Shown one piece after another: positions 22,123 to 52,546 of a stretch of 64,000 nucleotides of DNA. The notes beneath the pieces are model-generated. The model saw nothing but the letters and a program-made list of their open reading frames with translations, was not told the origin of the DNA and ran no database searches. The stretch is taken from sequence record MZ234025.1. The stretch is one strand, 5' to 3'. The DNA comes from Escherichia phage vB_EcoM-172859UKE1. The position numbers were made by a program, and so were the translations under genes. The number at the start of each line of letters is the position of its first letter. The stretch's first letter is position 1.

Positions 22123-24834
22123 ATGAAAGAATTTTACTTAACGGTTGAACAGATTGGTGATTCAATTTTTGAACGTTACATCGATTCTAATGGCCGTGAA
22201 CGTACTCGTGAAGTAGAATATAAACCATCACTGTTTGCTCATTGTCCAGAAAGTCAGGCTACGAAATATTTCGATATCTACGGTAAGCCGTGTACTCGTA
22301 AGTTGTTCGCTAATATGCGTGATGCCTCCCAATGGATTAAACGCATGGAAGATATCGGACTTGAAGCACTTGGCATGGACGATTTCAAATTGGCGTATTT
22401 GTCTGACACTTATAACTATGAAATCAAATACGACCATACAAAAATTCGTGTGGCTAACTTCGACATCGAAGTAACATCTCCGGATGGGTTCCCTGAGCCG
22501 TCACAAGCAAAACATCCTATTGATGCTATCACCCATTATGACTCAATTGACGACAGGTTCTACGTATTTGATCTATTGAATTCTCCATATGGTAATGTAG
22601 AAGAATGGTCTATTGAAATCGCTGCTAAGCTTCAAGAACAAGGTGGTGATGAAGTTCCATCTGAAATTATCGATAAAATCATTTATATGCCGTTCGATAA
22701 CGAAAAAGAATTGTTGATGGAATATCTCAACTTCTGGCAACAGAAAACTCCTGTCATTTTGACTGGATGGAACGTTGAGTCATTTGATATTCCATATGTG
22801 TATAACCGAATCAAGAATATTTTTGGCGAATCTACTGCGAAACGTTTATCACCACATCGTAAAACTCGTGTTAAAGTTATCGAAAACATGTATGGTTCTC
22901 GTGAAATCATTACATTGTTCGGTATCTCTGTTCTTGATTACATTGACCTTTACAAAAAATTCTCTTTTACCAATCAACCGTCGTATTCTCTGGATTACAT
23001 TTCAGAATTTGAATTGAACGTTGGTAAACTGAAATATGACGGCCCTATTTCTAAGCTTCGTGAAAGCAATCACCAACGATATATTTCTTATAACATTATC
23101 GATGTGTATCGTGTATTGCAAATTGATGCTAAGCGTCAGTTCATCAACTTGAGCTTGGACATGGGTTATTATGCTAAGATACAGATTCAATCTGTGTTTA
23201 GCCCAATTAAAACATGGGATGCTATTATTTTTAATAGCCTTAAAGAACAAAACAAGGTGATTCCACAAGGTCGTTCGCATCCAGTTCAACCTTACCCGGG
23301 TGCTTTTGTTAAGGAACCTATTCCAAATCGATACAAATATGTGATGAGCTTCGACCTCACATCTCTGTATCCAAGCATCATTCGCCAAGTGAATATTAGC
23401 CCGGAAACAATAGCAGGAACGTTTAAAGTAGCTCCACTGCATGATTATATTAACGCAATCGCTGAACGTCCTTCAGATGTGTACAGTTGCTCTCCTAACG
23501 GCATGATGTATTATAAAGACCGTGATGGTGTAGTTCCAACTGAAATCACTAAAGTCTTTAATCAACGTAAAGAACATAAAGGTTATATGCTTGCGGCTCA
23601 ACGTAATGGTGAAATAATTAAAGAGGCATTGCATAATCCTAATCTTTCTGTTGACGAACCATTAGATGTTGATTATCGTTTCGACTTCAGTGATGAGATT
23701 AAAGAAAAGATTAAAAAGTTGTCCGCTAAGTCTCTTAATGAAATGTTGTTTAGAGCTCAACGTACTGAAGTTGCAGGTATGACTGCACAGATTAACCGTA
23801 AATTGCTCATCAACTCACTTTATGGTGCACTTGGCAACGTTTGGTTCCGTTATTATGATTTGCGTAATGCTACTGCAATCACAACATTCGGGCAAATGGC
23901 TTTACAGTGGATTGAACGTAAAGTTAATGAATACCTGAATGAAGTTTGTGGTACAGAAGGTGAAGCTTTCGTTCTTTATGGTGATACAGACTCCATTTAC
24001 GTATCTGCGGATAAAATTATTGATAAGGTTGGTGAATCTAAATTCCGTGATACTAACCATTGGGTAGACTTCTTAGATAAGTTTGCACGTGAACGTATGG
24101 AACCAGCTATTGATAGAGGTTTCCGTGAAATGTGTGAATACATGAACAATAAACAACACTTAATGTTCATGGACCGAGAAGCTATCGCTGGTCCTCCGCT
24201 TGGTTCTAAAGGTATTGGCGGATTTTGGACTGGTAAGAAACGTTATGCATTAAACGTGTGGGATATGGAAGGTACTCGTTACGCTGAGCCTAAACTCAAA
24301 ATCATGGGTCTAGAGACTCAGAAATCTTCGACTCCTAAAGCAGTACAGAAAGCTCTTAAAGAATGTATTCGTCGTATGCTTCAAGAAGGTGAAGAATCAT
24401 TACAAGAATATTTTAAAGAGTTTGAAAAAGAATTCCGTCAATTGAATTATATTAGCATCGCGTCGGTATCTTCTGCGAATAACATTGCTAAATATGACGT
24501 CGGTGGATTCCCTGGTCCCAAATGCCCGTTCCATATTCGTGGAATTCTGACGTATAACCGAGCTATCAAAGGTAATATTGATGCACCACAAGTTGTAGAA
24601 GGTGAAAAAGTATATGTTCTGCCTTTACGTGAAGGAAACCCATTCGGTGATAAATGTATCGCATGGCCTTCTGGTACTGAAATCACAGATTTAATTAAAG
24701 ACGATGTACTTCATTGGATGGACTACACTGTTCTCCTTGAGAAGACATTTATTAAACCACTTGAAGGATTCACATCAGCAGCTAAACTCGATTACGAGAA
24801 GAAAGCATCTCTGTTCGATATGTTTGATTTTTGA
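22123..24834 (+). CDS. 43: DNA polymerase gp43 (family B)
   Basis: 903 aa; exonuclease FDIE, polymerase motifs SLYPS and YGDTDS. Confidence 0.97.
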   Translation: MKEFYLTVEQIGDSIFERYIDSNGRERTREVEYKPSLFAHCPESQATKYFDIYGKPCTRKLFANMRDASQWIKRMEDIGLEALGMDDFKLAYLSDTYNYEIKYDHTKIRVANFDIEVTSPDGFPEPSQAKHPIDAITHYDSIDDRFYVFDLLNSPYGNVEEWSIEIAAKLQEQGGDEVPSEIIDKIIYMPFDNEKELLMEYLNFWQQKTPVILTGWNVESFDIPYVYNRIKNIFGESTAKRLSPHRKTRVKVIENMYGSREIITLFGISVLDYIDLYKKFSFTNQPSYSLDYISEFELNVGKLKYDGPISKLRESNHQRYISYNIIDVYRVLQIDAKRQFINLSLDMGYYAKIQIQSVFSPIKTWDAIIFNSLKEQNKVIPQGRSHPVQPYPGAFVKEPIPNRYKYVMSFDLTSLYPSIIRQVNISPETIAGTFKVAPLHDYINAIAERPSDVYSCSPNGMMYYKDRDGVVPTEITKVFNQRKEHKGYMLAAQRNGEIIKEALHNPNLSVDEPLDVDYRFDFSDEIKEKIKKLSAKSLNEMLFRAQRTEVAGMTAQINRKLLINSLYGALGNVWFRYYDLRNATAITTFGQMALQWIERKVNEYLNEVCGTEGEAFVLYGDTDSIYVSADKIIDKVGESKFRDTNHWVDFLDKFARERMEPAIDRGFREMCEYMNNKQHLMFMDREAIAGPPLGSKGIGGFWTGKKRYALNVWDMEGTRYAEPKLKIMGLETQKSSTPKAVQKALKECIRRMLQEGEESLQEYFKEFEKEFRQLNYISIASVSSANNIAKYDVGGFPGPKCPFHIRGILTYNRAIKGNIDAPQVVEGEKVYVLPLREGNPFGDKCIAWPSGTEITDLIKDDVLHWMDYTVLLEKTFIKPLEGFTSAAKLDYEKKASLFDMFDF

Positions 24835-24874
24835 TATAATGCCAAGGACGGCCAACTAATTAAATGAGAGAAAT

Positions 24875-25510
24875 ATGAAAACTACTCCTATTACTATCGC
24901 TATTGACGCAATCGTAAAACAAGCTTCATCTCTTGCCACTATGGCTAAAGTAATTAGTCAAAACCCTGCTCGTTATAATGCTATTCTAGAAACTCTTCGA
25001 CGCCCTGGACTTAGTAATTATGAAAGCCGGGTAATTATTACAGGTGTTGGTAAGAATGCTAATATCGCAACTAAAGCTTCCGAGACTTTTGCTTCACTAG
25101 GTATTCCTAGCATGTATTTGAATACCGGGCATTATTCTCATGGTGACGCAGGATTTATTGCACCTAATGATGTATTAGTTCACATCAGTCGTTCTGGTAA
25201 GACTGAAGAAATGATAGGTGTTGCTAAACATCTTCGTATGATTCGTCCTCAGGTTAAACAGATTCTGTTACATTGTAACCCTGACATTCCACAAGAATAC
25301 GAAGCTCTTTTTGATTATACGTTCTGTACCGGTATCGCGGTAGAAGTTGACGAGAACTCTTTAGCTCCGACAATGTCCACTACATTGTTGTTAGCGCTTA
25401 TCGATACGTTCGCTATCAACCTTTCGTCTGAACGTGGATTTACCTCTAATGATTTCCTTAAGTTCCATCCAGGCGGTGCACTAGGTGCCATGTTACGAGG
25501 CGAACAATGA
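24875..25510 (+). CDS. SIS-domain sugar-phosphate isomerase (KdsD/GutQ-like arabinose-5-phosphate isomerase-like)
   Basis: 211 aa; ...TGVGKNANIATKASETFASLGIPS..., YSHGDAGF, ISRSGKTEE and C-terminal HPGGALG resemble SIS domain of A5P isomerases. Confidence 0.75.
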   Translation: MKTTPITIAIDAIVKQASSLATMAKVISQNPARYNAILETLRRPGLSNYESRVIITGVGKNANIATKASETFASLGIPSMYLNTGHYSHGDAGFIAPNDVLVHISRSGKTEEMIGVAKHLRMIRPQVKQILLHCNPDIPQEYEALFDYTFCTGIAVEVDENSLAPTMSTTLLLALIDTFAINLSSERGFTSNDFLKFHPGGALGAMLRGEQ

Positions 25511-25650
25511 AAGCAATAACAATAGGACTTTTACTATTGATGCTTGTCATGACTATCTACTGGAGCTTAACGGCTCCGGTAATGATTCCAACACTTGTAA
25601 TTGGATGGATTATGATTGGACTACAAGCAAAGTATGAATGCTTTAACTAG
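25507..25650 (+). CDS. possible small hydrophobic peptide
   Basis: 47-aa ORF with two hydrophobic stretches, ATGA-coupled. Confidence 0.3.
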   Translation: MKAITIGLLLLMLVMTIYWSLTAPVMIPTLVIGWIMIGLQAKYECFN

Positions 25651-25691
25651 AATAGTGTACAATACTCCTACTTACCAATGAGGACTTCAAC

Positions 25692-27377
25692 ATGAAAAAA
25701 GCTGTTATTCTTGGTGCTGGATTGGCAACTCGTTTATATCCAATAACGCATCATATTCCTAAGGTGCTTGTTAACTATAAACAAGACACTATTCTGAGCA
25801 ATTTGTATACAATTTATTCTGACCTTGGCGCAGATGAAATTATTGTAGTAGTTCATTCAAAATTTGCTGAAACTGTTCGAGCTTATTGTGAGCAAGAAGG
25901 GTTCAATGTGACTATTCGTACAGTTGATGAAGCGTATGGTTCTGCTTATGCTCTTGCTAAATTACACAAAGATTTAGACGGCCATAATGTAATTGTTAAC
26001 TGGTGTGATATTATTCCTGATTTTGGTTCATGGTCTTGGAATGTTAACGCAATCTATGTTAAGGGTGACGAATGTCGATATAATTTCGACGGTGAAAATA
26101 TCACTAACGTAGGTTCAACAGGTGGTAATGTTGTAGGAATTTATCAGTTCAAAGACTGGGAATTCTATATGGGTTCTACCGATGAGGAAATTCATGAATA
26201 CTGCAAAGGACGTGATTTCGTAGAATTCCTTTACAGCGGCGCATTCAATAAATCAGAGCTTATGAATATCATCGACCTTGGTGATATGCCTAAACTTGAA
26301 AAGGCCCATGAAGTTCGTGAACTGAACCGTAGTTTTAATGCAGTTGAAATTGGCGAAGAAACTGTAACTAAATTCGCATTAACCGAACAGGGTCGAGCTC
26401 TTCAGAAAGATGAGATTTCGTGGTATTTGAAAGTGAAATCAGATTCAGTTCCTCAGTTAGTTTCTGTTAATGAAAATAACTTTGAAATGGAACGCATTAA
26501 AGGTAAGCCGGCATTTGAATATATTAAATCAAAATCAAGTCTTGCTCGTCCACAAATTGTTGATGCAATTTTAGATGCACTGAAATTCAGCACAGACACT
26601 TATTTTGTAAGTCCTGAAACTGTTCGTCGTGATTTCACTAAAGAATTCTATACGAAAGTTATTGATCGTTGTGAAAGCATTCAACCATTGATTGATTCAT
26701 TTGGTAAAATCACACACGTGAACTACACTAAGATTGGACGTCTGAAGCCAATGCTGAAACAAGCTTTAGAACACCTTATTCGTTATCATAACCGTTCTCA
26801 GGGACAGTACTCTGTTATTCATGGTGACCCGAACTTCAGTAATACTATGATTACTGATAACGGCGAAGTCAAGTTTATCGACCCTCGTGGATATTTTGGT
26901 GAAACCAAGATTTACGGGCCAAAATTGTATGATGAAGCTAAAGTGCTTTATGCTGTTTCAGGTTATGATGAATTCAATGCTAATCCGACCTGGGGGCAGT
27001 TTACTATTGATGAAACAACTTGTAATGTGACTATTAACATCAATCCATTAGTTTACAAATATGGAAAGATGAGTTCGTTTAACGAGTATCATCATTTGGC
27101 AGTGGCAATTATCTGGATTGCATTAGGTGGTTATTTCAAGAATAATCCACTTAAAGCGGTAGCCGCATATTATAAAGGTATGGAACTTCTGACTAAGCAA
27201 TTACGTAACATGGGCCGTGTACTTCAAGACGGCTCTATTAGTTATGACGTAGCAGAACCTGTAACGGCTACTCTGATTACAAAAAATCCTGGTAAATGGG
27301 TACTAACTGATAAAGAAACTGGTGTTTCCTATCGTCCAATCGGTGGCGATATCACTCATCAATGGGAACGAATCTAA
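25692..27377 (+). CDS. bifunctional sugar-1-phosphate nucleotidyltransferase / kinase-like protein
   Basis: N-terminal AVILGAGLATRLYPIT (NTP-transferase G-x-G-x-R); C-terminal HGDPNFSN and IDPRG resemble APH/anomeric sugar kinase catalytic motifs. Confidence 0.7.
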   Translation: MKKAVILGAGLATRLYPITHHIPKVLVNYKQDTILSNLYTIYSDLGADEIIVVVHSKFAETVRAYCEQEGFNVTIRTVDEAYGSAYALAKLHKDLDGHNVIVNWCDIIPDFGSWSWNVNAIYVKGDECRYNFDGENITNVGSTGGNVVGIYQFKDWEFYMGSTDEEIHEYCKGRDFVEFLYSGAFNKSELMNIIDLGDMPKLEKAHEVRELNRSFNAVEIGEETVTKFALTEQGRALQKDEISWYLKVKSDSVPQLVSVNENNFEMERIKGKPAFEYIKSKSSLARPQIVDAILDALKFSTDTYFVSPETVRRDFTKEFYTKVIDRCESIQPLIDSFGKITHVNYTKIGRLKPMLKQALEHLIRYHNRSQGQYSVIHGDPNFSNTMITDNGEVKFIDPRGYFGETKIYGPKLYDEAKVLYAVSGYDEFNANPTWGQFTIDETTCNVTININPLVYKYGKMSSFNEYHHLAVAIIWIALGGYFKNNPLKAVAAYYKGMELLTKQLRNMGRVLQDGSISYDVAEPVTATLITKNPGKWVLTDKETGVSYRPIGGDITHQWERI

Positions 27378-27763
27378 TGCACCGTGTAGAAAACATGCTT
27401 AATCTTTGTTTTGATGTCGATGATTGTATAACAGAGTGGAATAACAATCGTGATTACGTGAACTTCAAACCAGACGTCGAAATGGTGTCTGCCATTAATG
27501 CTCTGTATGATGCAGGGCATACCATAACGCTTTACACTGCTCGCGGTATGAAGTCAGTAGGTCCTGGACGTATAGCAATTGACATTCTCCCAAGTCTGAT
27601 TCAGAACTTGGCAAACATTGGCTTGAAGTACCATAATTTGCTAACACATAAACCAGTATATGATTGGATTATCGACGACAAAGCTATGCGTCCTGACGAA
27701 TTCAAAGCTCTTATGAATAAAGGCGAATTCGAAACATTTAAACCATATAAACCGAATCTATAA
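27377..27763 (+). CDS. HAD-superfamily phosphatase
   Basis: FDVDDCIT (DxDxT motif I) near N-terminus; ~128 aa, size of KdsC/GmhB-type phosphatases; TAATG coupling. Confidence 0.7.
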   Translation: MHRVENMLNLCFDVDDCITEWNNNRDYVNFKPDVEMVSAINALYDAGHTITLYTARGMKSVGPGRIAIDILPSLIQNLANIGLKYHNLLTHKPVYDWIIDDKAMRPDEFKALMNKGEFETFKPYKPNL

Positions 27764-27820
27764 TAATTTAAGTAAGACATGCAAAAACCATCGCATCAAT
27801 TAACGCGAGACGCAAAATAA

Positions 27821-28981
27821 ATGAATACTTTTAAAATCGGAACGAATTTTGATTTAGCTCTTCTTGATAAAATCGTAGAGCTCAATAAAACTTATCCTAA
27901 TAGCTTGATAAATGAAGTATACGGCTCTACAAGAGAAATGGCTTTTGTAGCAGCCAGACCTGATTTTAGGCTTCCTGACGTTGACAAAAAGATGTTAGAA
28001 GATTACGTTAAACGTTGTAACGAATTAGGTATTTGCTTTAACTATACACTCAACACGATAAATCCTGGTTCAAAAAGAGAACTAGTTGAGTGGAAGAAGA
28101 AAGCTATTCAGGATTATGTTCAGTATCTTTGGTCAATAGGCGTATGGCGTATTACTATCGCTAACCCTGTTGTTATGGAAATTGTTCGTGAAGTCAATAA
28201 AGACATTGAGATTGAAGTTTCAACAATTCTACATGTCGATGCTGTAACTCAAATCAAATACTTGCATGACCAATATAATATCAAAAAGGTCTGCTGTGGA
28301 ATTCATAAGAACCGTTCAGTTTCTTTCCTGAAGCGTGCAGCAGAGTTTTGCAATAAGAACAATATAATATTTGAAGTTCTTGTAAATGAGTTCTGTTCTA
28401 ATGCTGGTAAAGGGTATACAACACATTGTAGCTATCGTGACTCTTGCTATATTTTCCATAGTACTGATGTTACAGCTGATGATGCTAAATCCTTAAACGG
28501 ATATCCTATGCAGCACTGTATTAAAGCTCGTGATACAGACCCATTTAACTGGTTGAGAACTCGTTTTGTTCGTCCTCAAGATTTGAAACTTTATAATGAT
28601 ATTGGTATCACTCAATTCAAAGTTTCAGGACGTACAGGTAGCACAGACTACATTTTGAAAGTTCTTGAAGCATACGCTTCTGAAAAGTTTGAAGGTAATT
28701 TGTTAGAACTGTGGAAGCCTTTAGAGACTATTTTCACTCTTGAAAACGAAACTGAGTTTTCACATACAGTAAATATTGAAACCTCTTTGTTAGATGGCTT
28801 TTTAGAAAAAAGGTGGTTCAGACATCCAGATTTCGATTGTGCTAATGAAATCTGCGGGACGACGTGTACATATTGTGAAAGATATTATAAACGTCAATTA
28901 TCTAAAAACGGGTTAGCAGAAAACTCTATATCTATTATTGATATAACTAACTCTGATGACGCTTTGAGGTACCCGGAATGA
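27821..28981 (+). CDS. U32-family-like Cys-rich protein (possible Fe-S enzyme)
   Basis: 386 aa; FNYTLNT, EVLVNEFCS...HCSYRDSC, FKVSGRTGS resemble U32 motifs; C-terminal CxxxCxxxCxYC. Confidence 0.55.
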   Translation: MNTFKIGTNFDLALLDKIVELNKTYPNSLINEVYGSTREMAFVAARPDFRLPDVDKKMLEDYVKRCNELGICFNYTLNTINPGSKRELVEWKKKAIQDYVQYLWSIGVWRITIANPVVMEIVREVNKDIEIEVSTILHVDAVTQIKYLHDQYNIKKVCCGIHKNRSVSFLKRAAEFCNKNNIIFEVLVNEFCSNAGKGYTTHCSYRDSCYIFHSTDVTADDAKSLNGYPMQHCIKARDTDPFNWLRTRFVRPQDLKLYNDIGITQFKVSGRTGSTDYILKVLEAYASEKFEGNLLELWKPLETIFTLENETEFSHTVNIETSLLDGFLEKRWFRHPDFDCANEICGTTCTYCERYYKRQLSKNGLAENSISIIDITNSDDALRYPE

Positions 28982-29061
28982 TTTCTAGAAAAACTTTTAA
29001 CCACCAACTTAATGAAGAGATTTTGACTATGAAACTGAACACTAATGACCAAATTCTTAAA

Positions 29062-29083
29062 CAGGCCCATCAGGGCCTGTTTG
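29062..29083 (+). terminator. GC-rich stem-loop (possible terminator) at the 3' edge of the sugar module
   Basis: CAGGCCC-atca-GGGCCTG perfect 7-bp stem followed by TTT. Confidence 0.35.
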
Positions 29084-29218
29084 AAACTAAAGCGGCTAAA
29101 GTGATTAAAGAAACCTGTTCAATTGGAATACTACGCTGATGCATTTCTTCATAGTGTTCTTGGAAGTATCGATGCTGAAGCTTTACGTTATATCAACATT
29201 GTCAAGAAATTCAAATAA

Positions 29219-29241
29219 GCTTTACGAATTGAGTATATAAT
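29219..29241 (+). promoter_or_regulatory. possible MotA-type middle promoter for gene 42
   Basis: GCTTTA 29219-29224, 11-bp spacer, TATAAT 29236-29241. Confidence 0.35.
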
Positions 29242-29260
29242 AAATTGTATTGAGGTAAAC

Positions 29261-29977
29261 ATGGGAAAACATAACACAATGAAATATATCAAAGCCGCAG
29301 ATTTTCAAACCGCATTTAAAGCAGTCAATCGTGAAATTTTAGAAAACCCGGAATTCGTAACTGATTCTCGTATTGGACGTTGTAATGAAATTGGGTCTAT
29401 GACAGTAGTTGTTGACACTCCATCATCATTCAAAATGACCGACCCACGTATTAACCGCATCTCTTATGAATATGCCGAAGACTTCTGGAAGTTTATGATT
29501 TCTGGTGGTACCAACGCAGAAGAAGCGTTTAAGGCATATCCTAATGTCGCTAAATTTATTTCTAAACCAAAATCAGATGTTTTGCCGGCGAACTTCAACA
29601 CTTTCTATGGTCCTCGCATTGCGGCCCAATTACCAGCTCTTCTAAAAGAACTTAAAGAGAAGCCTAACTCCCGAAGAGTTGTGTTCCAAATTCTAGAAAG
29701 TTCTGATCAGGCTTTGCTTGATTCAGACGAAACGCTTGAATATCCATGTACTGACTCAGTGACTTATTATATTCGTGATGGTAAGCTTTATACCCACTGT
29801 CATATGCGTTCTCAGAACTGTGCTGTTGTTATGCAGTTGGATTTTTATCTCCAAGGAAAATTACTTCATTATATCGCTAACGAATGTGGTGTAGAAGTTG
29901 GTGATTATACTCATACCATGGTAAGTGCCCATGTGTTTGAACGTGATTTTGATTATGTTAAAGGATTCCTTGACTAA
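29261..29977 (+). CDS. 42: dCMP hydroxymethylase gp42
   Basis: 238 aa thymidylate-synthase-fold protein; catalytic region EYPCTDSVTYYIRDGKL...HMRSQN parallels T4 gp42; lacks TS PCH motif. Confidence 0.85.
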   Translation: MGKHNTMKYIKAADFQTAFKAVNREILENPEFVTDSRIGRCNEIGSMTVVVDTPSSFKMTDPRINRISYEYAEDFWKFMISGGTNAEEAFKAYPNVAKFISKPKSDVLPANFNTFYGPRIAAQLPALLKELKEKPNSRRVVFQILESSDQALLDSDETLEYPCTDSVTYYIRDGKLYTHCHMRSQNCAVVMQLDFYLQGKLLHYIANECGVEVGDYTHTMVSAHVFERDFDYVKGFLD

Positions 29978-30876
29978 TGGCTATTTTCCGCGTACCTATT
30001 TTGAGTATGCGGTCTTATGAAACTGGACAGTATGCTATCCTTAAGGATGGCAACTTCCAACTTCATTTGCACCGTGCTAATCCGGGTGATGTGATTACAT
30101 ATCCACGTAATGCATCTGATATTAAAGAATGCGAACGTCTTTTTCCAGAATTTAAGTTTGTTCCATTATGGTATAAAGATAACGCGTATAACACTCGTAA
30201 ATATTTCTGGTCTGAAAATGAATTTGTGGTTGATTCATTAATTGCTTATTATGATTGTGATTTTCTAATCACAGATATCACTGGATATGACGGCGCTTTT
30301 GATGTAGAATTCAATTTCAATATCACTGCAGACCCTAATAAACCACGTTTTTATATTGACGAATTCTTAAAAACCGATATGTTGTCGGTTAATCGTTCAC
30401 TTCAAACTACTGTGTTGAATGAACGTCAAAAAGAAGTGCTGGTTAACGCAGGTGCAGATGGTAATAAGATTATCGTAACACAGAAAGTTATACGTCCTTC
30501 CATCATGCAGCGTCTTGTAGGTGATTTGGCTCCTATTCATCTAGATGGTATTTTTCATCCATTTCGAATTAGTGACCCATGCTATCGTTTTGAACAAGTG
30601 GTTGAATGTGCAATTCAATTAGGTCAACCGCTTTATATAACCGATCCAAATAATAGCTTCGACAGAAATAAGTATCCTGAAGAAGCGCTGATTCGAATTT
30701 TTAAACCAACTAAAACTGAGTACTATCAAATTCTTAAAGGACGTCCGAAGATTCAATATTTCGAAAATCCTGAAGAAGTATTCCATCCAGGTCTTGGCGA
30801 GTTCATCTACTTTAATGCTTTAATTTCTTCGCCGTATAATATACCTAAATACGAAGATGTTGTAATCGAGGAATAA
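29977..30876 (+). CDS. hypothetical protein occupying the beta-glucosyltransferase locus (candidate DNA sugar transferase)
   Basis: 299-aa ORF ATGA-coupled to gene 42; no similarity recognised to T4 beta-gt. Confidence 0.6.
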   Translation: MAIFRVPILSMRSYETGQYAILKDGNFQLHLHRANPGDVITYPRNASDIKECERLFPEFKFVPLWYKDNAYNTRKYFWSENEFVVDSLIAYYDCDFLITDITGYDGAFDVEFNFNITADPNKPRFYIDEFLKTDMLSVNRSLQTTVLNERQKEVLVNAGADGNKIIVTQKVIRPSIMQRLVGDLAPIHLDGIFHPFRISDPCYRFEQVVECAIQLGQPLYITDPNNSFDRNKYPEEALIRIFKPTKTEYYQILKGRPKIQYFENPEEVFHPGLGEFIYFNALISSPYNIPKYEDVVIEE

Positions 30877-30877
30877 A

Positions 30878-31426
30878 ATGGCTAAAATTATTTTAGTAGA
30901 TGGCCCGGATAATGCTGGTAAAACAACTTTCATTAATGACATAATGGAAATTAGTGAAAGATATGTAAAGATTGATTTCCCTAAAAGAACGGTTGATGGA
31001 CGTTTCGATGTTAAGTCTCGAAATGAAGTTGGCTGTTTCGAAACGATGTTGAATTATTTAGACCCTACTAAGATTTATCTATTAGACCGTGGATATATTA
31101 GTAACTGGGTTTATGGACGTATTCGTCAAGATGCGGACTCGGTTCTTGACGTTTATGAACAGGATTATGTTCGTCTTTGCCAAAACCATGATGTGTTCAC
31201 AATTATTTTAACACGTAACGAAATGACTGAAAGTTTTGAAGACGACCTTATTACTTTGTCTTCATTCGGTTTTAATACAGTCATTTCACATTTTGAAGAG
31301 TTTGCAATTCATAACAAAATCCAAACGTATCAATTACTTAATCATGATGGTGCTAACAAAGTTATAGGATTTAATGCAAGCGAACGTAATGATTTGATTA
31401 CAGAAATCATCAAATGGGCTCGTTAA
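30878..31426 (+). CDS. P-loop kinase (NMP/sugar kinase-like)
   Basis: N-terminal Walker A GPDNAGKTT and LDRGY region typical of small P-loop kinases. Confidence 0.6.
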   Translation: MAKIILVDGPDNAGKTTFINDIMEISERYVKIDFPKRTVDGRFDVKSRNEVGCFETMLNYLDPTKIYLLDRGYISNWVYGRIRQDADSVLDVYEQDYVRLCQNHDVFTIILTRNEMTESFEDDLITLSSFGFNTVISHFEEFAIHNKIQTYQLLNHDGANKVIGFNASERNDLITEIIKWAR

Positions 31427-31444
31427 GAGCCATTTAAAGTTTTA

Positions 31445-31471
31445 AATGCTGTATAACCCTTAGTATATAAT
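31445..31471 (+). promoter_or_regulatory. possible MotA-dependent middle promoter for uvsX
   Basis: AAATGCTGTA (one mismatch to MotA box), 12-bp spacer, TATAAT 31466-31471. Confidence 0.35.
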
Positions 31472-31524
31472 CATCTTATCTTTTAAACATGAGTAAAATA
31501 TAATGATGCCTATGGAAAAATACA

Positions 31525-32697
31525 ATGTCTGATTTAAAATCTCGTCTGATTAAAGCTTCTACTTCTAAAATGACTGCAGACTTGACTAAGTCTAAGCTGT
31601 TTAATAATCGTGATGAAGTCCCTACTCGTATTCCGATGTTGAATATTGCATTAGGTGGTGCACTGAATGCAGGGTTGCAATCAGGCTTGACTATTTTTGC
31701 TGCACCTTCTAAACATTTTAAAACATTGTTTGGACTGACCATGGTTGCAGCATATATGAAGAAATATAAAGATGCAATTTGTTTGTTCTATGATTCAGAA
31801 TTTGGTGCTTCAGAATCTTATTTTCGTTCAATGGGTGTTGATTTAGACCGTGTAGTTCATACTCCGATTCAATCTGTCGAACAACTTAAAGTTGATATGA
31901 CTAATCAGCTTGACGCGATTGAACGCGGTGATAAAGTTATTATCTTTATCGATTCAATCGGTAATACTGCATCTAAGAAAGAAACTGAAGATGCATTGAA
32001 CGAGAAAGTTGTAGGTGATATGTCTCGTGCTAAGGCACTTAAATCTCTTTTCCGTATTGTGACCCCGTATCTGACTATTAAAGATATTCCGTGTGTTGCA
32101 ATTAACCATACCGCAATGGAAATTGGCGGATTGTATCCTAAAGAGATTATGGGCGGTGGTACAGGTATTCTTTATTCTGCCAACACAGTGTTTTTTATCT
32201 CTAAACGTCAGGTTAAAGAAGGTACAGAATTGACCGGTTATGACTTCACGTTGAAAGCAGAAAAATCTCGCACTGTTAAAGAAAAATCTACTTTCCCAAT
32301 CACGGTTAATTTTGATGGTGGTATCGACCCATTCAGCGGCTTGCTAGAAATGGCAACTGAAATTGGTTTTGTAGTTAAGCCTAAAGCTGGTTGGTATGCT
32401 CGCGAATTCCTTGACGAAGAAACAGGTGAAATGATTCGTGAAGAAAAATCATGGCGTGCTAAAGCTACTGATTGTGTAGAATTCTGGGGACCTTTGTTTA
32501 AACACAAACCTTTCCGAGATGCAATTGAAACTAAATATAAACTAGGTGCTATCTCTTCTATTAAAGAAGTTGATGACGCTGTTAACGACCTTATTAATTG
32601 CAAAGCAACAACTAAAGTTCCGGTTAAAACTTCTGATGCTCCGTCTGCAGCAGATATAGAAAACGACCTTGACGAAATGGAAGATTTCGATGAATAA
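31525..32697 (+). CDS. uvsX: recombinase UvsX (RecA-like)
   Basis: 390 aa; MSDLKSRLIKASTSK... and Walker A GPSKHFKT closely match T4 UvsX. Confidence 0.95.
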   Translation: MSDLKSRLIKASTSKMTADLTKSKLFNNRDEVPTRIPMLNIALGGALNAGLQSGLTIFAAPSKHFKTLFGLTMVAAYMKKYKDAICLFYDSEFGASESYFRSMGVDLDRVVHTPIQSVEQLKVDMTNQLDAIERGDKVIIFIDSIGNTASKKETEDALNEKVVGDMSRAKALKSLFRIVTPYLTIKDIPCVAINHTAMEIGGLYPKEIMGGGTGILYSANTVFFISKRQVKEGTELTGYDFTLKAEKSRTVKEKSTFPITVNFDGGIDPFSGLLEMATEIGFVVKPKAGWYAREFLDEETGEMIREEKSWRAKATDCVEFWGPLFKHKPFRDAIETKYKLGAISSIKEVDDAVNDLINCKATTKVPVKTSDAPSAADIENDLDEMEDFDE

Positions 32698-51445: not shown

Positions 51446-52546
51446 ATGAAAGTTATGTTTATCCCATCTCGTGCAGCCCCATTTAATCCTGACCGTGTAC
51501 AAGGTGGCCTTGAAGCAGTACATTTAAATGTGTTGAAATATCTTGTGTCCATCGGTGCTGATATTGATTATATCGGCTTTGATAATGACACGTTTGGTGA
51601 CTGGAAAGTTACACACCATCCTGTTGGTCATCTGGCTAAATTCAGTCTAGGTATGAGTTATACTATGGCTCGTAAGATTGTTGAACTAGCCAGCATTAAT
51701 GAATACGATTTCGTTGTTACAATGGAACCGACCAAACTAACGGTCCAAGCAATTAAAGATGCTGGACTCTCTAAAGTTCATAAGAATTTTATGGCTACAC
51801 CGTTTGAACCAGTGTCTCGTGGTATTGTTCAAATTTGGGATCAGACTATCCAGATTCACAAGAACGGTGGGAAGAGCTATGCTCCTACTAAAGCATTCCG
51901 TGAATTTGAACGTAAATATTGTCATATGACTTCAGCTCTTACTGACAAAATTGATTATGACTACTGGCGTGAAAATCCATTATTTGAACCTGATGACTAC
52001 CCGGTTATTTGTTTGAATGAAAAACCTGAAGTTCTTCCGGCAACTGAGTTGATTATTAGTGCTCAACGTTATGACACTAAGATGCGTCGCACTGATGTTG
52101 CTCTTGAAGCAATTAAAGCACTAGGCGAAAATGGTATTGGTTATTGTCCAAGCAAATGGGCACCACCAGCTAAATATCCTGTTATTATTGATGCTCCACA
52201 CAGTGAAATCATGGAACGTCTTAAAACAGCTAAAGCACTTATTAATACATGCCCTGACACAGGTACGGTAGAGAATAGTTCTATTGAAGCTATCTCTAAA
52301 GGTGTCCCTGTAATCCAGTTAGTTTTTAAGGATTATCCTCATGCGACATTCGAATACGATCCAGATACTGTGCGTGTAGAAATTGATTCCTCTACTCCTA
52401 AGAAAGAAGTAGTTGCGCTTTACACAAAAGCTGTATTAGAATTCACTGACACATACGAAGCTCGAGTTAAACGTGCTGAAGCAGTATGGAAGAAGTATAA
52501 CCGAGATGCAGTTGTTGCGATGTGGGATAAAATCTTCACAGCGTAA
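51446..52546 (+). CDS. putative GT-B-fold glycosyltransferase
   Basis: 366 aa; MKVMFIPS start and C-terminal TGTVENSSIEAISKGVPVIQ resembling GT4-type motif; weak inference. Confidence 0.5.
   Translation: MKVMFIPSRAAPFNPDRVQGGLEAVHLNVLKYLVSIGADIDYIGFDNDTFGDWKVTHHPVGHLAKFSLGMSYTMARKIVELASINEYDFVVTMEPTKLTVQAIKDAGLSKVHKNFMATPFEPVSRGIVQIWDQTIQIHKNGGKSYAPTKAFREFERKYCHMTSALTDKIDYDYWRENPLFEPDDYPVICLNEKPEVLPATELIISAQRYDTKMRRTDVALEAIKALGENGIGYCPSKWAPPAKYPVIIDAPHSEIMERLKTAKALINTCPDTGTVENSSIEAISKGVPVIQLVFKDYPHATFEYDPDTVRVEIDSSTPKKEVVALYTKAVLEFTDTYEARVKRAEAVWKKYNRDAVVAMWDKIFTA

What the first reader, a model, noticed from the sequence alone, without database searches (positions are those of the whole stretch)
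25692..27377. Single-polypeptide fusion of a sugar-1-phosphate nucleotidyltransferase with an APH-fold kinase
The N-terminal G-x-G-x-R nucleotidyltransferase signature and the C-terminal HGDxxxxN/IDPRG kinase catalytic loop sit in one 561-aa ORF. That is the architecture of salvage enzymes which phosphorylate a free sugar at C1 and activate it to an NDP-sugar (AmgK/MurU-like or fucokinase/pyrophosphorylase-like logic). It would let the phage make an activated sugar independent of host pathways.
Basis: partly seen in the sequence, partly recalled or inferred. Interest (0 to 1): 0.7.

Follow-up and report, generated by a model that had tools for sequence, protein, structure and literature searches.

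The report
Phage UDP-arabinose enzyme AfhE, already characterised
This gene is real and is a fused sugar kinase and nucleotidyltransferase, but it is the already described enzyme (AfhE, also RB69 ORF53_52c) that RB69-like phages use to make UDP-arabinose for decorating the cytosines of their DNA, so it is an ordinary, known feature.

Summary
Window 25692-27377 (+) is one uninterrupted 561-aa ORF. It has an N-terminal sugar-1-phosphate nucleotidyltransferase domain (about aa 1-205) and a C-terminal APH/choline-kinase-fold kinase domain (about aa 215-505). All catalytic residues are invariant across 37 homologs that share 29-73% identity with the query.

The window is an RB69-like T4-type phage (Mosigvirus). 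The gene lies just downstream of the DNA polymerase gene. It sits between an arabinose-5-phosphate isomerase gene and a small HAD phosphatase gene. Downstream are the 5-hydroxy-dCMP synthase and a DNA arabinosyltransferase.

The protein is 97% identical to the syntenic protein of phage HY126. It is the orthologue of RB69 ORF53_52c (gp52:53; 97.3% DNA identity, same position), which was proposed as a UDP-arabinose gene in 2018. According to a 2026 paper, the HY126 enzyme AfhE was shown to be a D-arabinose-5-phosphate kinase plus UDP-D-arabinose pyrophosphorylase.

The "free-sugar salvage" logic is probably wrong. The reported route is arabinose-5-P to arabinose-1,5-bisphosphate (kinase), then arabinose-1-P (HAD phosphatase), then UDP-arabinofuranose. 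This is the logic of the nucleotide-heptose pathway.

Novelty: already known. Interest: low.

The parts
24875..25510 (+). SIS-domain D-arabinose-5-phosphate isomerase (RB69 gp55 orthologue). It makes arabinose-5-P from host ribulose-5-P.
   Evidence: Pfam SIS E 8.2e-10. NCBIfam KpsF/GutQ E 8.8e-32 and KdsD E 3.8e-30, both below the curated cut-offs. Annotated as arabinose 5-phosphate isomerase in RB69 and HY126.
25692..27377 (+). The finding: a 561-aa bifunctional kinase/nucleotidyltransferase, orthologue of HY126 AfhE and RB69 ORF53_52c (gp52:53). The stop codon is at 27375-27377.
   Evidence: PMC6024577 and PMC13326640.
25692..26306 (+). N-terminal domain, aa 1-205: sugar-1-phosphate nucleotidyltransferase (UDP-arabinose pyrophosphorylase). 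Invariant residues: G10, R14, K24, G83, W104, D106, P109, R129, D195, G197, D198, K201.
26334..27206 (+). C-terminal domain, aa 215-505: APH/choline-kinase-fold kinase (anomeric C1 kinase). Invariant residues: K227, E241, H377-G-D379, S383, N384, D397-P-R-G400.
27207..27374 (+). C-terminal tail, aa 506-561. It is conserved in the phage proteins and not covered by the matches to the four-domain cellular and giant-virus-like fusions. Role unknown.
   Evidence: Model strands at 546-549 and 558-560, with pLDDT 80-89. Conserved in Thanatos TH1_060. Matches to the roughly 900-aa fusions cover only 87-90% of the query, and tblastn alignments stop near aa 497-505.
27377..27763 (+). Small HAD-type phosphatase (AfhF, RB69 gp51 orthologue). 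Its ATG overlaps the TAA stop of the kinase/transferase gene (TAATG), which suggests translational coupling.
   Evidence: Sequence. 99% identical to the HY126 neighbour. NCBIfam TIGR01689 capsule biosynthesis phosphatase E 4.1e-13, below the cut-off. Function taken from PMC13326640.
27821..28981 (+). Peptidase-U32-family protein (RB69 gp50 orthologue). It lies in the same module; its role is unknown.
   Evidence: Pfam Peptidase_U32 E 7.3e-11. Weak UbiU match.
29261..29977 (+). Thymidylate-synthase homologue, the 5-hydroxy-dCMP synthase (RB69 gp48 orthologue). It makes the acceptor base.
   Evidence: Pfam Thymidylat_synt E 2.3e-15. Same position as RB69p048. Activity of RB69 gp48 shown in PMC13326640.
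29977..30876 (+). Putative first DNA arabinosyltransferase (RB69 gp46:47 orthologue), a consumer of the UDP-arabinose.
   Evidence: 99% identical to the syntenic HY126 protein. Role proposed in PMC13326640. No Pfam match.
51446..52546 (+). Putative second DNA arabinosyltransferase (RB69 ORF003c/gp3 orthologue), located between the topoisomerase and rIIA genes.
   Evidence: 96% identical to RB69p003. Role proposed in PMC6024577 and PMC13326640.

Best explanation
The ORF encodes the phage enzyme known as AfhE (RB69 ORF53_52c, gp52:53). It is a two-domain protein that carries out the second and fourth steps of a four-step phage pathway from host ribulose-5-phosphate to UDP-D-arabinofuranose.

Step 1: the upstream SIS isomerase converts ribulose-5-P to D-arabinose-5-P.
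Step 2: the C-terminal APH-fold kinase domain of this protein uses ATP to phosphorylate the anomeric C1, giving arabinose-1,5-bisphosphate.
Step 3: the downstream, translationally coupled HAD phosphatase removes the 5-phosphate, giving arabinose-1-P.
Step 4: the N-terminal nucleotidyltransferase domain condenses arabinose-1-P with UTP to give UDP-arabinofuranose and pyrophosphate.

Phage arabinosyltransferases then transfer arabinose from UDP-arabinofuranose onto 5-hydroxycytosine in phage DNA. According to the literature, this protects the DNA from host nucleases.

Shown here: the architecture, the folds, the conserved catalytic residues, the gene neighbourhood, and 97% identity to the HY126 protein.
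Taken from the literature: the enzyme activities and the order of the steps.
Inferred: that the HY126 results transfer to this orthologue, and that HY126 protein XAN60479.1 is the protein called AfhE.
For: Gene and domains.
- Single 561-aa ORF. Pfam NTP_transferase scores above its cut-off, and weak kinase-family matches fall around the HGD loop.
- In 37 homologs sharing 29-73% identity with the query, the invariant residues cover both active sites. Nucleotidyltransferase: G10, R14, K24, D106, D195, G197, D198, K201. Kinase: K227, E241, H377, G378, D379, N384, D397.
- The AlphaFold model has pLDDT 93.2. Fold matches are LicC, RmlA, MurU and HddC for the N-terminal half. They are choline kinases, APH enzymes, fructosamine kinase, glucosamine kinase and maltokinase for the C-terminal half.

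Identity and context.
- 97% amino-acid identity to the syntenic HY126 protein XAN60479.1, and 99% for the neighbouring HAD protein.
- 97.3% DNA identity to RB69 ORF053c plus ORF052c.
- Gene order is DNA polymerase, SIS isomerase, this gene, HAD, U32, ThyA homologue, glycosyltransferase, as in RB69 and HY126.
- The stop and start codons overlap (TAATG) with the HAD gene.

Fusion evidence.
- Distant homologs are single polypeptides of about 900 aa with domain order HAD, SIS, nucleotidyltransferase, kinase. All the catalytic residues above are invariant in them. This ties the four activities to one pathway.
- The profile's best solved relative is HddC, the nucleotidyltransferase of the GDP-heptose pathway, which uses the same isomerase, kinase, bisphosphate phosphatase and transferase logic.

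Literature.
- PMC6024577 showed that the RB69 gene is one 561-aa ORF, expressed as a protein of about 64 kDa, and proposed a role in UDP-arabinose synthesis.
[quoted passage not shown] It states that AfhF is the Mg-dependent phosphatase acting on the bisphosphate. It also shows that UDP-Araf is used by phage arabinosyltransferases in vitro.
- PMC12838424 reports that the 54%-identical Thanatos TH1_060 is essential for phage propagation.
Against: - The primary biochemical paper (He et al. 2026, Nat Chem Biol) and Mahler et al. 2025 are not in the held library. The order of steps and the UTP specificity therefore rest on a secondary summary.
- That summary is internally inconsistent. Table 1 of PMC13326640 still lists the free-sugar route: the HAD 'dephosphorylates Araf5p to Ara' and the kinase 'phosphorylates Ara to Araf1p'.
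- The link between the name AfhE and HY126 protein XAN60479.1 is my inference from synteny and architecture. The GenBank record calls it a hypothetical protein.
- Thanatos TH1_060 gave no product with xylose-1-P and any NTP. This result is uninformative about arabinose.
- I could not inspect model coordinates for a 5-phosphate-binding pocket.
Confidence: 0.85

Rival explanations
1. Free-sugar salvage route, as the first reader proposed (AmgK/MurU-like). The HAD phosphatase first converts arabinose-5-P to free D-arabinose. The kinase domain then phosphorylates the free sugar at C1. The N-terminal domain then makes the NDP-sugar.
For: Structural neighbours of the kinase domain include kinases described as acting on free sugars (maltokinase, glucosamine kinase). 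The N-terminal domain resembles MurU. Table 1 of PMC13326640 still lists exactly this route for RB69 gp51 and gp52:53.
Against: [quoted passage not shown]
- The same paper reports that the HAD protein resembles heptose-1,7-bisphosphate 7-phosphatase.
- The best solved relative of the transferase profile is HddC of the heptose pathway, which uses the bisphosphate logic.
- The MurU equivalog model scores 24.8 bits against a 250-bit cut-off.
Confidence: 0.1
2. A LicC/LicA-like fusion that phosphorylates choline, or another small alcohol, and activates it as a CDP-derivative.
Against: - Identities are only 10-21%.
- The gene is embedded in a sugar-phosphate module (SIS isomerase, HAD) next to DNA glycosyltransferases.
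- The four-domain fusions include an arabinose-5-P-isomerase-type SIS domain.
- The DNA of RB69 carries arabinose (PMC6024577 and PMC13326640).
Confidence: 0.02
3. The protein is itself a DNA glycosyltransferase with an attached phosphotransferase domain. This was considered for RB69 ORF053c in 2018 and for Thanatos TH1_060.
For: The conserved-domain annotation 'glycosyltransferase family A' in the RB69 record and in the Thanatos paper.
Against: - The fold and the conserved residues are those of nucleotidyltransferases (G-x-G/A-T-R-L loop, K24, D106, D195).
- It scored poorly against glycosyltransferase HMMs in PMC6024577.
- No transfer to DNA was seen with TH1_060.
- Separate arabinosyltransferases are encoded in the window.
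Confidence: 0.02

Closest known systems
AfhE of Escherichia phage HY126 (He et al. 2026, as summarised in PMC13326640)
   Same: 97% amino-acid identity over the full length. Same position between the arabinose-5-P isomerase and the HAD phosphatase (AfhF, 99% identical). Same two-domain architecture.
   Different: 18 substitutions and a one-residue indel, clustered at aa 241-265 in the N-lobe of the kinase domain. None touches an invariant residue.
RB69 ORF53_52c, also called gp52:53 (Thomas et al. 2018, PMC6024577; Lee et al. 2026, PMC13326640)
   Same: Orthologue with 97.3% DNA identity, 561 aa and the same gene neighbourhood.
   Different: The RB69 database record still shows two ORFs (p053 and p052) because of one spurious C at the position of aa 219. 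The window has the intact reading frame.
Acinetobacter phage DLP3 gp82 and Shewanella phage Thanatos TH1_060
   Same: Same fusion in T4-like phages of other hosts. TH1_060 is 54% identical over the full length, including the C-terminal tail, and is essential for propagation.
   Different: Different hosts, and different numbers of arabinoses on the DNA (one in Thanatos, three in DLP3, according to PMC13326640).
Nucleotide-heptose pathways (GmhA, HddA, GmhB, HddC; and HldE with GmhB)
   Same: Same reaction logic: SIS isomerase, anomeric kinase acting on a sugar phosphate, HAD phosphatase acting on the bisphosphate, then nucleotidyltransferase. HddC is the best solved relative of the N-terminal domain profile (E 1.4e-13). 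HldE is also a kinase/nucleotidyltransferase fusion (background knowledge).
   Different: The sugar is a pentose, not a heptose. The kinase has the APH fold, whereas HddA is GHMP-type and the HldE kinase domain is ribokinase-like (background knowledge). The HddC equivalog model scores 22.1 bits against a 300-bit cut-off, so this is an analogue and not a member.
AmgK/MurU (MurNAc salvage) and LicA/LicC (choline activation)
   Same: Both pair an APH/choline-kinase-fold kinase with a minimal MurU/LicC-type nucleotidyltransferase. Both folds are matched structurally.
   Different: Those kinases act on an unphosphorylated substrate and need no phosphatase step. AmgK and MurU are usually separate proteins (background knowledge). 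The MurU models score far below their cut-offs.
Bacteroides FKP (L-fucokinase/GDP-fucose pyrophosphorylase)
   Same: A bifunctional kinase plus pyrophosphorylase in one chain, with the pyrophosphorylase at the N terminus (background knowledge).
   Different: The FKP kinase is of the GHMP type (background knowledge), whereas this kinase has the APH fold. FKP starts from the free sugar.

Membership tests
AfhE / RB69 gp52:53 family (phage D-arabinose-5-P 1-kinase / UDP-D-arabinose pyrophosphorylase) | Close sequence relationship to the characterised HY126 enzyme | tested here: met
   97% identity over 561 aa to HY126 XAN60479.1. That this protein is the one named AfhE is inferred from its architecture and position, together with PMC13326640.
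AfhE / RB69 gp52:53 family (phage D-arabinose-5-P 1-kinase / UDP-D-arabinose pyrophosphorylase) | N-terminal nucleotidyltransferase and C-terminal kinase in one polypeptide, with both catalytic sites intact | tested here: met
AfhE / RB69 gp52:53 family (phage D-arabinose-5-P 1-kinase / UDP-D-arabinose pyrophosphorylase) | Neighbourhood containing the arabinose-5-P isomerase, the AfhF-type HAD phosphatase, the 5-hydroxy-dCMP synthase and an arabinosyltransferase | tested here: met
AfhE / RB69 gp52:53 family (phage D-arabinose-5-P 1-kinase / UDP-D-arabinose pyrophosphorylase) | Arabinose-5-P kinase and UDP-arabinose pyrophosphorylase activities | not testable with these tools
   Requires enzymology. 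Reported for HY126 AfhE only through the summary in PMC13326640.
Sugar-1-phosphate nucleotidyltransferases (Pfam PF00483; RmlA, LicC, MurU, HddC type) | Score above the Pfam gathering threshold | tested here: met
   39.1 bits against a 21.2-bit cut-off, aa 3-99.
Sugar-1-phosphate nucleotidyltransferases (Pfam PF00483; RmlA, LicC, MurU, HddC type) | N-terminal G-x-G-T-R-L phosphate-binding loop followed by a conserved Lys | tested here: met
   The loop is G10-L-A12-T-R14-L, followed by K24. The second Gly is Ala here and A, S or G in homologs. G10, R14 and K24 are invariant.
Sugar-1-phosphate nucleotidyltransferases (Pfam PF00483; RmlA, LicC, MurU, HddC type) | Complete Rossmann-like nucleotidyltransferase fold | tested here: met
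APH / choline-kinase-like kinases (Pfam PF01636 and relatives) | Score above the Pfam gathering threshold | tested here: not met
   APH 14.4 bits against 23.2. Fructosamine kinase 17.1 against 22.4. EcKL 16.2 against 22. Several homologs do carry precomputed PF01636 hits.
APH / choline-kinase-like kinases (Pfam PF01636 and relatives) | Catalytic loop H-x-D-x-x-x-x-N, a metal-binding Asp, and the Lys-Glu pair of the N-lobe | tested here: met
   H377-G-D379-x4-N384, D397, K227 and E241 are all invariant in 37 homologs and in the 11 four-domain fusions aligned with the query. Assignment of K227 and E241 to the Lys-Glu pair is by position in the fold and not by structural superposition.
APH / choline-kinase-like kinases (Pfam PF01636 and relatives) | Bilobal kinase fold | tested here: met
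AmgK/MurU-type free-sugar salvage | MurU equivalog model match | tested here: not met
   NF045761 scores 24.8 bits against 250. NF045697 scores 19.9 against 370.
AmgK/MurU-type free-sugar salvage | The kinase substrate is an unphosphorylated sugar | not testable with these tools
   The literature summary says the substrate is arabinose-5-P.
FKP-type fucokinase/pyrophosphorylase | GHMP-family kinase domain | tested here: not met
   The kinase domain has the APH/choline-kinase fold and there was no GHMP Pfam match. That FKP uses a GHMP kinase is background knowledge.
HddC / HldE nucleotide-heptose enzymes | HddC equivalog model match | tested here: not met
   NF049965 scores 22.1 bits against 300. 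HddC is nevertheless the best solved relative of the family profile. The logic is the same, but this is not a member.

The most novel reading that the evidence does not exclude
The gene itself is known. The most novel reading left open concerns its relatives. The same kinase/transferase pair occurs fused with its HAD and SIS partners into one polypeptide of about 900 aa. Some of these fusions lie on contigs that look like giant viruses of eukaryotes: they carry a MutS with an HNH domain, Rpb2, Rpb10, a C48 peptidase and an SNF2 helicase. Another is found in a eukaryote transcriptome. Giant viruses may therefore also make an NDP-arabinose-type sugar from ribulose-5-P, for virion glycans or conceivably for nucleic-acid modification. 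For the phage protein itself, the conserved 56-residue C-terminal tail that the fusions lack might dock the separate HAD phosphatase and so channel the bisphosphate intermediate.
Probability: 0.3. Interest if true: 0.45.

Novelty: already known. Interest (0 to 1): 0.12.

Why it matters
The enzyme supplies the sugar donor for poly-arabinosylation of 5-hydroxycytosine. According to the literature, this modification makes RB69-like phage DNA resistant to many restriction enzymes and changes its sensitivity to other defence systems. That matters for choosing phages for therapy and for making glycosylated DNA enzymatically.

The role, the architecture and, by report, the activities are already published, so this window adds no new biology.

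The practical value is for annotation. Most of the 373 phage records with a homolog call it 'hypothetical protein' or 'bifunctional protein GlmU'. RefSeq labels the neighbouring phosphatase 'phosphoheptose isomerase'. The RB69 reference record still splits the gene in two.

Tried and rejected
- I tried to read the primary papers (He et al. 2026, doi 10.1038/s41589-026-02150-z; Mahler et al. 2025, doi 10.1016/j.chom.2025.06.005). Neither is held.
- Full-text searches for 'AfhE/AfhF', 'HY126' and 'UDP-arabinofuranose' returned only PMC13326640 as relevant.
- A sigma-70 promoter and terminator scan of 24700-31600 found no more sites than in shuffled sequence: 25 promoter-like sites against 26.6 expected. 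It says nothing about operon structure.
- Sequence-only search of the PDB found no solved structure of this protein or of a close relative. The best match was LicC at E 2e-5, and no kinase hit was significant.
- tblastn of the other module proteins (ThyA homologue, both glycosyltransferases, U32, HAD) against the stretches held from the contigs carrying the four-domain fusions, at most 8 kb on each side of the gene, found only the SIS part and the kinase/transferase part of the fusion itself.
- An undetected frameshift was considered and rejected. A glycosyltransferase function and a LicCA-like choline-activating function were also considered and rejected; see the rival explanations.
Full report
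**What is there.** Window 25692-27377 (+) is a single ORF of 561 aa that starts at ATG and ends at TAA. A GAGGA ribosome-binding sequence lies upstream. The window is a T4-type phage. The ORF immediately upstream of the module (22123-24834) is a 903-aa protein at the position of RB69 gene 43, the DNA polymerase. The 4.1-kb stretch 24875-29000 matches 152 phage genomes at 95-99% identity over at least 80% of its length, mostly Escherichia and Shigella phages of the RB69 group (Mosigvirus). The protein is 100% identical to one in phage vB_EcoM_G2285, and 373 phage records contain a homolog.

**Checking the observation.**
- Nucleotidyltransferase domain. Pfam NTP_transferase matches aa 3-99 above its curated cut-off (E 8.4e-10, 39.1 bits against 21.2).
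- Kinase domain. Families around the HGD loop match only below their cut-offs (APH, fructosamine kinase, EcKL, RIO1), so sequence alone is suggestive but not conclusive.
- Homologs. I collected 317 homologs and aligned 37 that share 29-73% identity with the query.
- Conserved transferase residues. Invariant columns include G10, R14, K24, G83, W104, D106, P109, R129, D195, G197, D198 and K201.
- Conserved kinase residues. Invariant columns include K227, E241, H377, G378, D379, S383, N384, D397, P398, R399 and G400.
- The signature loop. The loop reads G8-A-G10-L-A12-T-R14-L, the canonical G-x-G-T-R-L with Ala for the second Gly. That position is A, S or G in the family.
- The kinase motifs. HGDPNFSN and IDPRG are exactly as described.
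- Structure. An AlphaFold model built on the alignment is confident throughout (mean pLDDT 93.2, pTM 0.90). It shows a complete nucleotidyltransferase domain (about aa 1-205), a short linker, a bilobal kinase domain (about aa 215-505) and a 56-residue tail.

**The frameshift question.** The test fails to refute. The fusion is continuous in 364 of 373 phage records and in all full-length homologs. The only split version is the original RB69 record, where RB69p053 and RB69p052 are annotated separately. My alignment shows that record has one extra C after window position 26345, at aa 219, exactly in the inter-domain linker. Thomas et al. resequenced this region and found the C to be an error. They also expressed a single protein of about 64 kDa (PMC6024577).

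**Context.** The gene order downstream of the polymerase is:
- a SIS-domain arabinose-5-phosphate isomerase at 24875-25510 (KpsF/GutQ E 8.8e-32);
- a 47-aa hydrophobic ORF;
- the target gene;
- a small HAD-type phosphatase whose ATG overlaps the target's TAA as TAATG;
- a peptidase-U32-family protein;
- a thymidylate-synthase homologue;
- a 299-aa protein that is 99% identical to its HY126 counterpart;
- a 182-aa protein at the position of RB69p045, annotated thymidylate kinase;
- UvsX.

This is the same order as in RB69 and HY126. The second putative arabinosyltransferase (RB69 ORF003c orthologue, 96% identical) is at 51446-52546.

**What it does.**
- Thomas et al. 2018 found arabinose in RB69 DNA and proposed ORF53_52c and ORF055c as UDP-arabinose synthesis genes.
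- Lee et al. 2026 (PMC13326640) showed that the modification is di-arabinosylated 5-hydroxycytosine. They showed that the ThyA homologue makes 5-hydroxy-dCMP, and that UDP-Araf is the donor used by phage arabinosyltransferases in vitro.
- Lee et al. also summarise He et al. 2026. [quoted passage not shown] AfhF is a Mg-dependent phosphatase that converts arabinose-1,5-bisphosphate to arabinose-1-phosphate.
- The window protein is 97% identical to the syntenic HY126 protein, and the HAD neighbour is 99% identical. I therefore assign it as the AfhE orthologue.
- In Shewanella phage Thanatos, the 54%-identical TH1_060 is essential for propagation.

- Distant homologs of about 900 aa carry HAD, SIS, nucleotidyltransferase and kinase domains in one chain. 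All catalytic residues of the two AfhE domains are invariant in them. Such a fusion links the four activities to one pathway.
- The family profile's best solved relative is HddC, the guanylyltransferase of the GDP-heptose pathway (E 1.4e-13). By background knowledge, that pathway uses the same sequence of steps: SIS isomerase, anomeric kinase acting on a sugar phosphate, HAD bisphosphate phosphatase, then nucleotidyltransferase.

The architecture and the general purpose are right: the phage makes its own activated sugar. The proposed logic, phosphorylation of a free sugar as in AmgK/MurU or FKP, is probably wrong, because the reported kinase substrate is arabinose-5-phosphate. Membership tests against MurU and HddC equivalog models fail by a wide margin. 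By background knowledge the FKP kinase is GHMP-type, not APH-fold.

A caveat remains. I could not read the primary biochemical paper. Table 1 of PMC13326640 still lists the free-sugar route. I therefore keep that rival at about 10%.

The pathway is also not independent of the host. It draws on host ribulose-5-phosphate, ATP and UTP.

**Verdict.** The feature is real and is correctly described at the level of architecture. It is already known: it was predicted in 2018, modelled in 2026, and by report characterised biochemically in a 97%-identical orthologue. Interest is low.

**Side observations.**
- Some of the four-domain fusions lie on contigs that look like giant viruses.
- The phage proteins have a conserved C-terminal tail that the fusions lack.
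- A U32-family gene of unknown role sits in the module.
- Database annotation of the module is widely wrong or uninformative.

Noticed in passing
L003 8001-10781 (GCA_013558355.1 contig JACCDH010973257.1); L006 5545-8283; proteins P0084, P0088, P0091, P0093, P0108: Distant homologs (29-36% identity to the query) are four-domain polypeptides of about 900 aa with domain order HAD, SIS, nucleotidyltransferase, kinase, and all catalytic residues are conserved. P0084 lies between a MutS gene with an HNH domain, Rpb10 and Rpb2. P0108 lies next to an SNF2 helicase, a C48 peptidase and an asparagine synthase. These contexts resemble giant viruses of eukaryotes. P0091 comes from a eukaryote transcriptome. 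PMC13326640 does not mention giant viruses. [quoted passage not shown]
   Followed up: partly
window 27821-28981 (+): A peptidase-U32-family protein (RB69 gp50 orthologue) sits inside the arabinosylation module, with a weak UbiU match. By background knowledge, the U32 family includes oxygen-independent hydroxylases such as RlhA, which makes 5-hydroxycytidine in rRNA, and TrhP. It could therefore be an alternative, possibly anaerobic, route to 5-hydroxycytosine. PMC13326640 lists it only as 'sugar or heterocycle reductase'.
   Followed up: no
window 25507-25650 (+): A 47-aa, strongly hydrophobic ORF (MKAITIGLLLLMLVMTIYWSLTAPVMIPTLVIGWIMIGLQAKYECFN). Its ATG overlaps the stop codon of the isomerase gene (ATGA). 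It is also annotated in HY126 (144 nt) and in RB69 (p054). It is a likely small membrane protein of unknown role between the isomerase and the kinase/transferase.
   Followed up: no
window 27375-27379: The TAA stop of the kinase/transferase gene overlaps the ATG of the HAD phosphatase gene (TAATG). This suggests translational coupling of two enzymes that alternate in the pathway. The longer ORF call from 27362 is probably not the real start, because RB69 and HY126 annotate the downstream ATG.
   Followed up: partly
window 27207-27374 (aa 506-561 of the target): The 56-residue C-terminal tail is conserved among phage orthologues, including the 54%-identical Thanatos protein. It is not covered by matches to the four-domain fusions. 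Its function is unknown. It may be a docking or oligomerisation element.
   Followed up: no
L001 (RB69 NC_004928.1 28094-29780) and many records: Annotation problems. The RB69 reference record still splits the gene (p052 and p053) because of one spurious C. By my alignment it is at about record position 29126, whereas the 2018 paper cites C-29116. RefSeq names the HAD phosphatase 'phosphoheptose isomerase'. The target gene is labelled 'hypothetical protein', 'bifunctional protein GlmU' or 'mannose-1-phosphate guanyltransferase' in most phage records.
   Followed up: partly
one search hits H127-H130 (Vibrio phages D482 and D480, Synechococcus phages S-SRM01 and S-SKS1): Very distant homologs (26-30% identity) of the fusion occur in large Vibrio and cyanophage genomes. 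One is annotated 'NDP-sugar synthase | 3' phosphatase'. Whether these phages modify their DNA with a pentose is not known to me.
   Followed up: no
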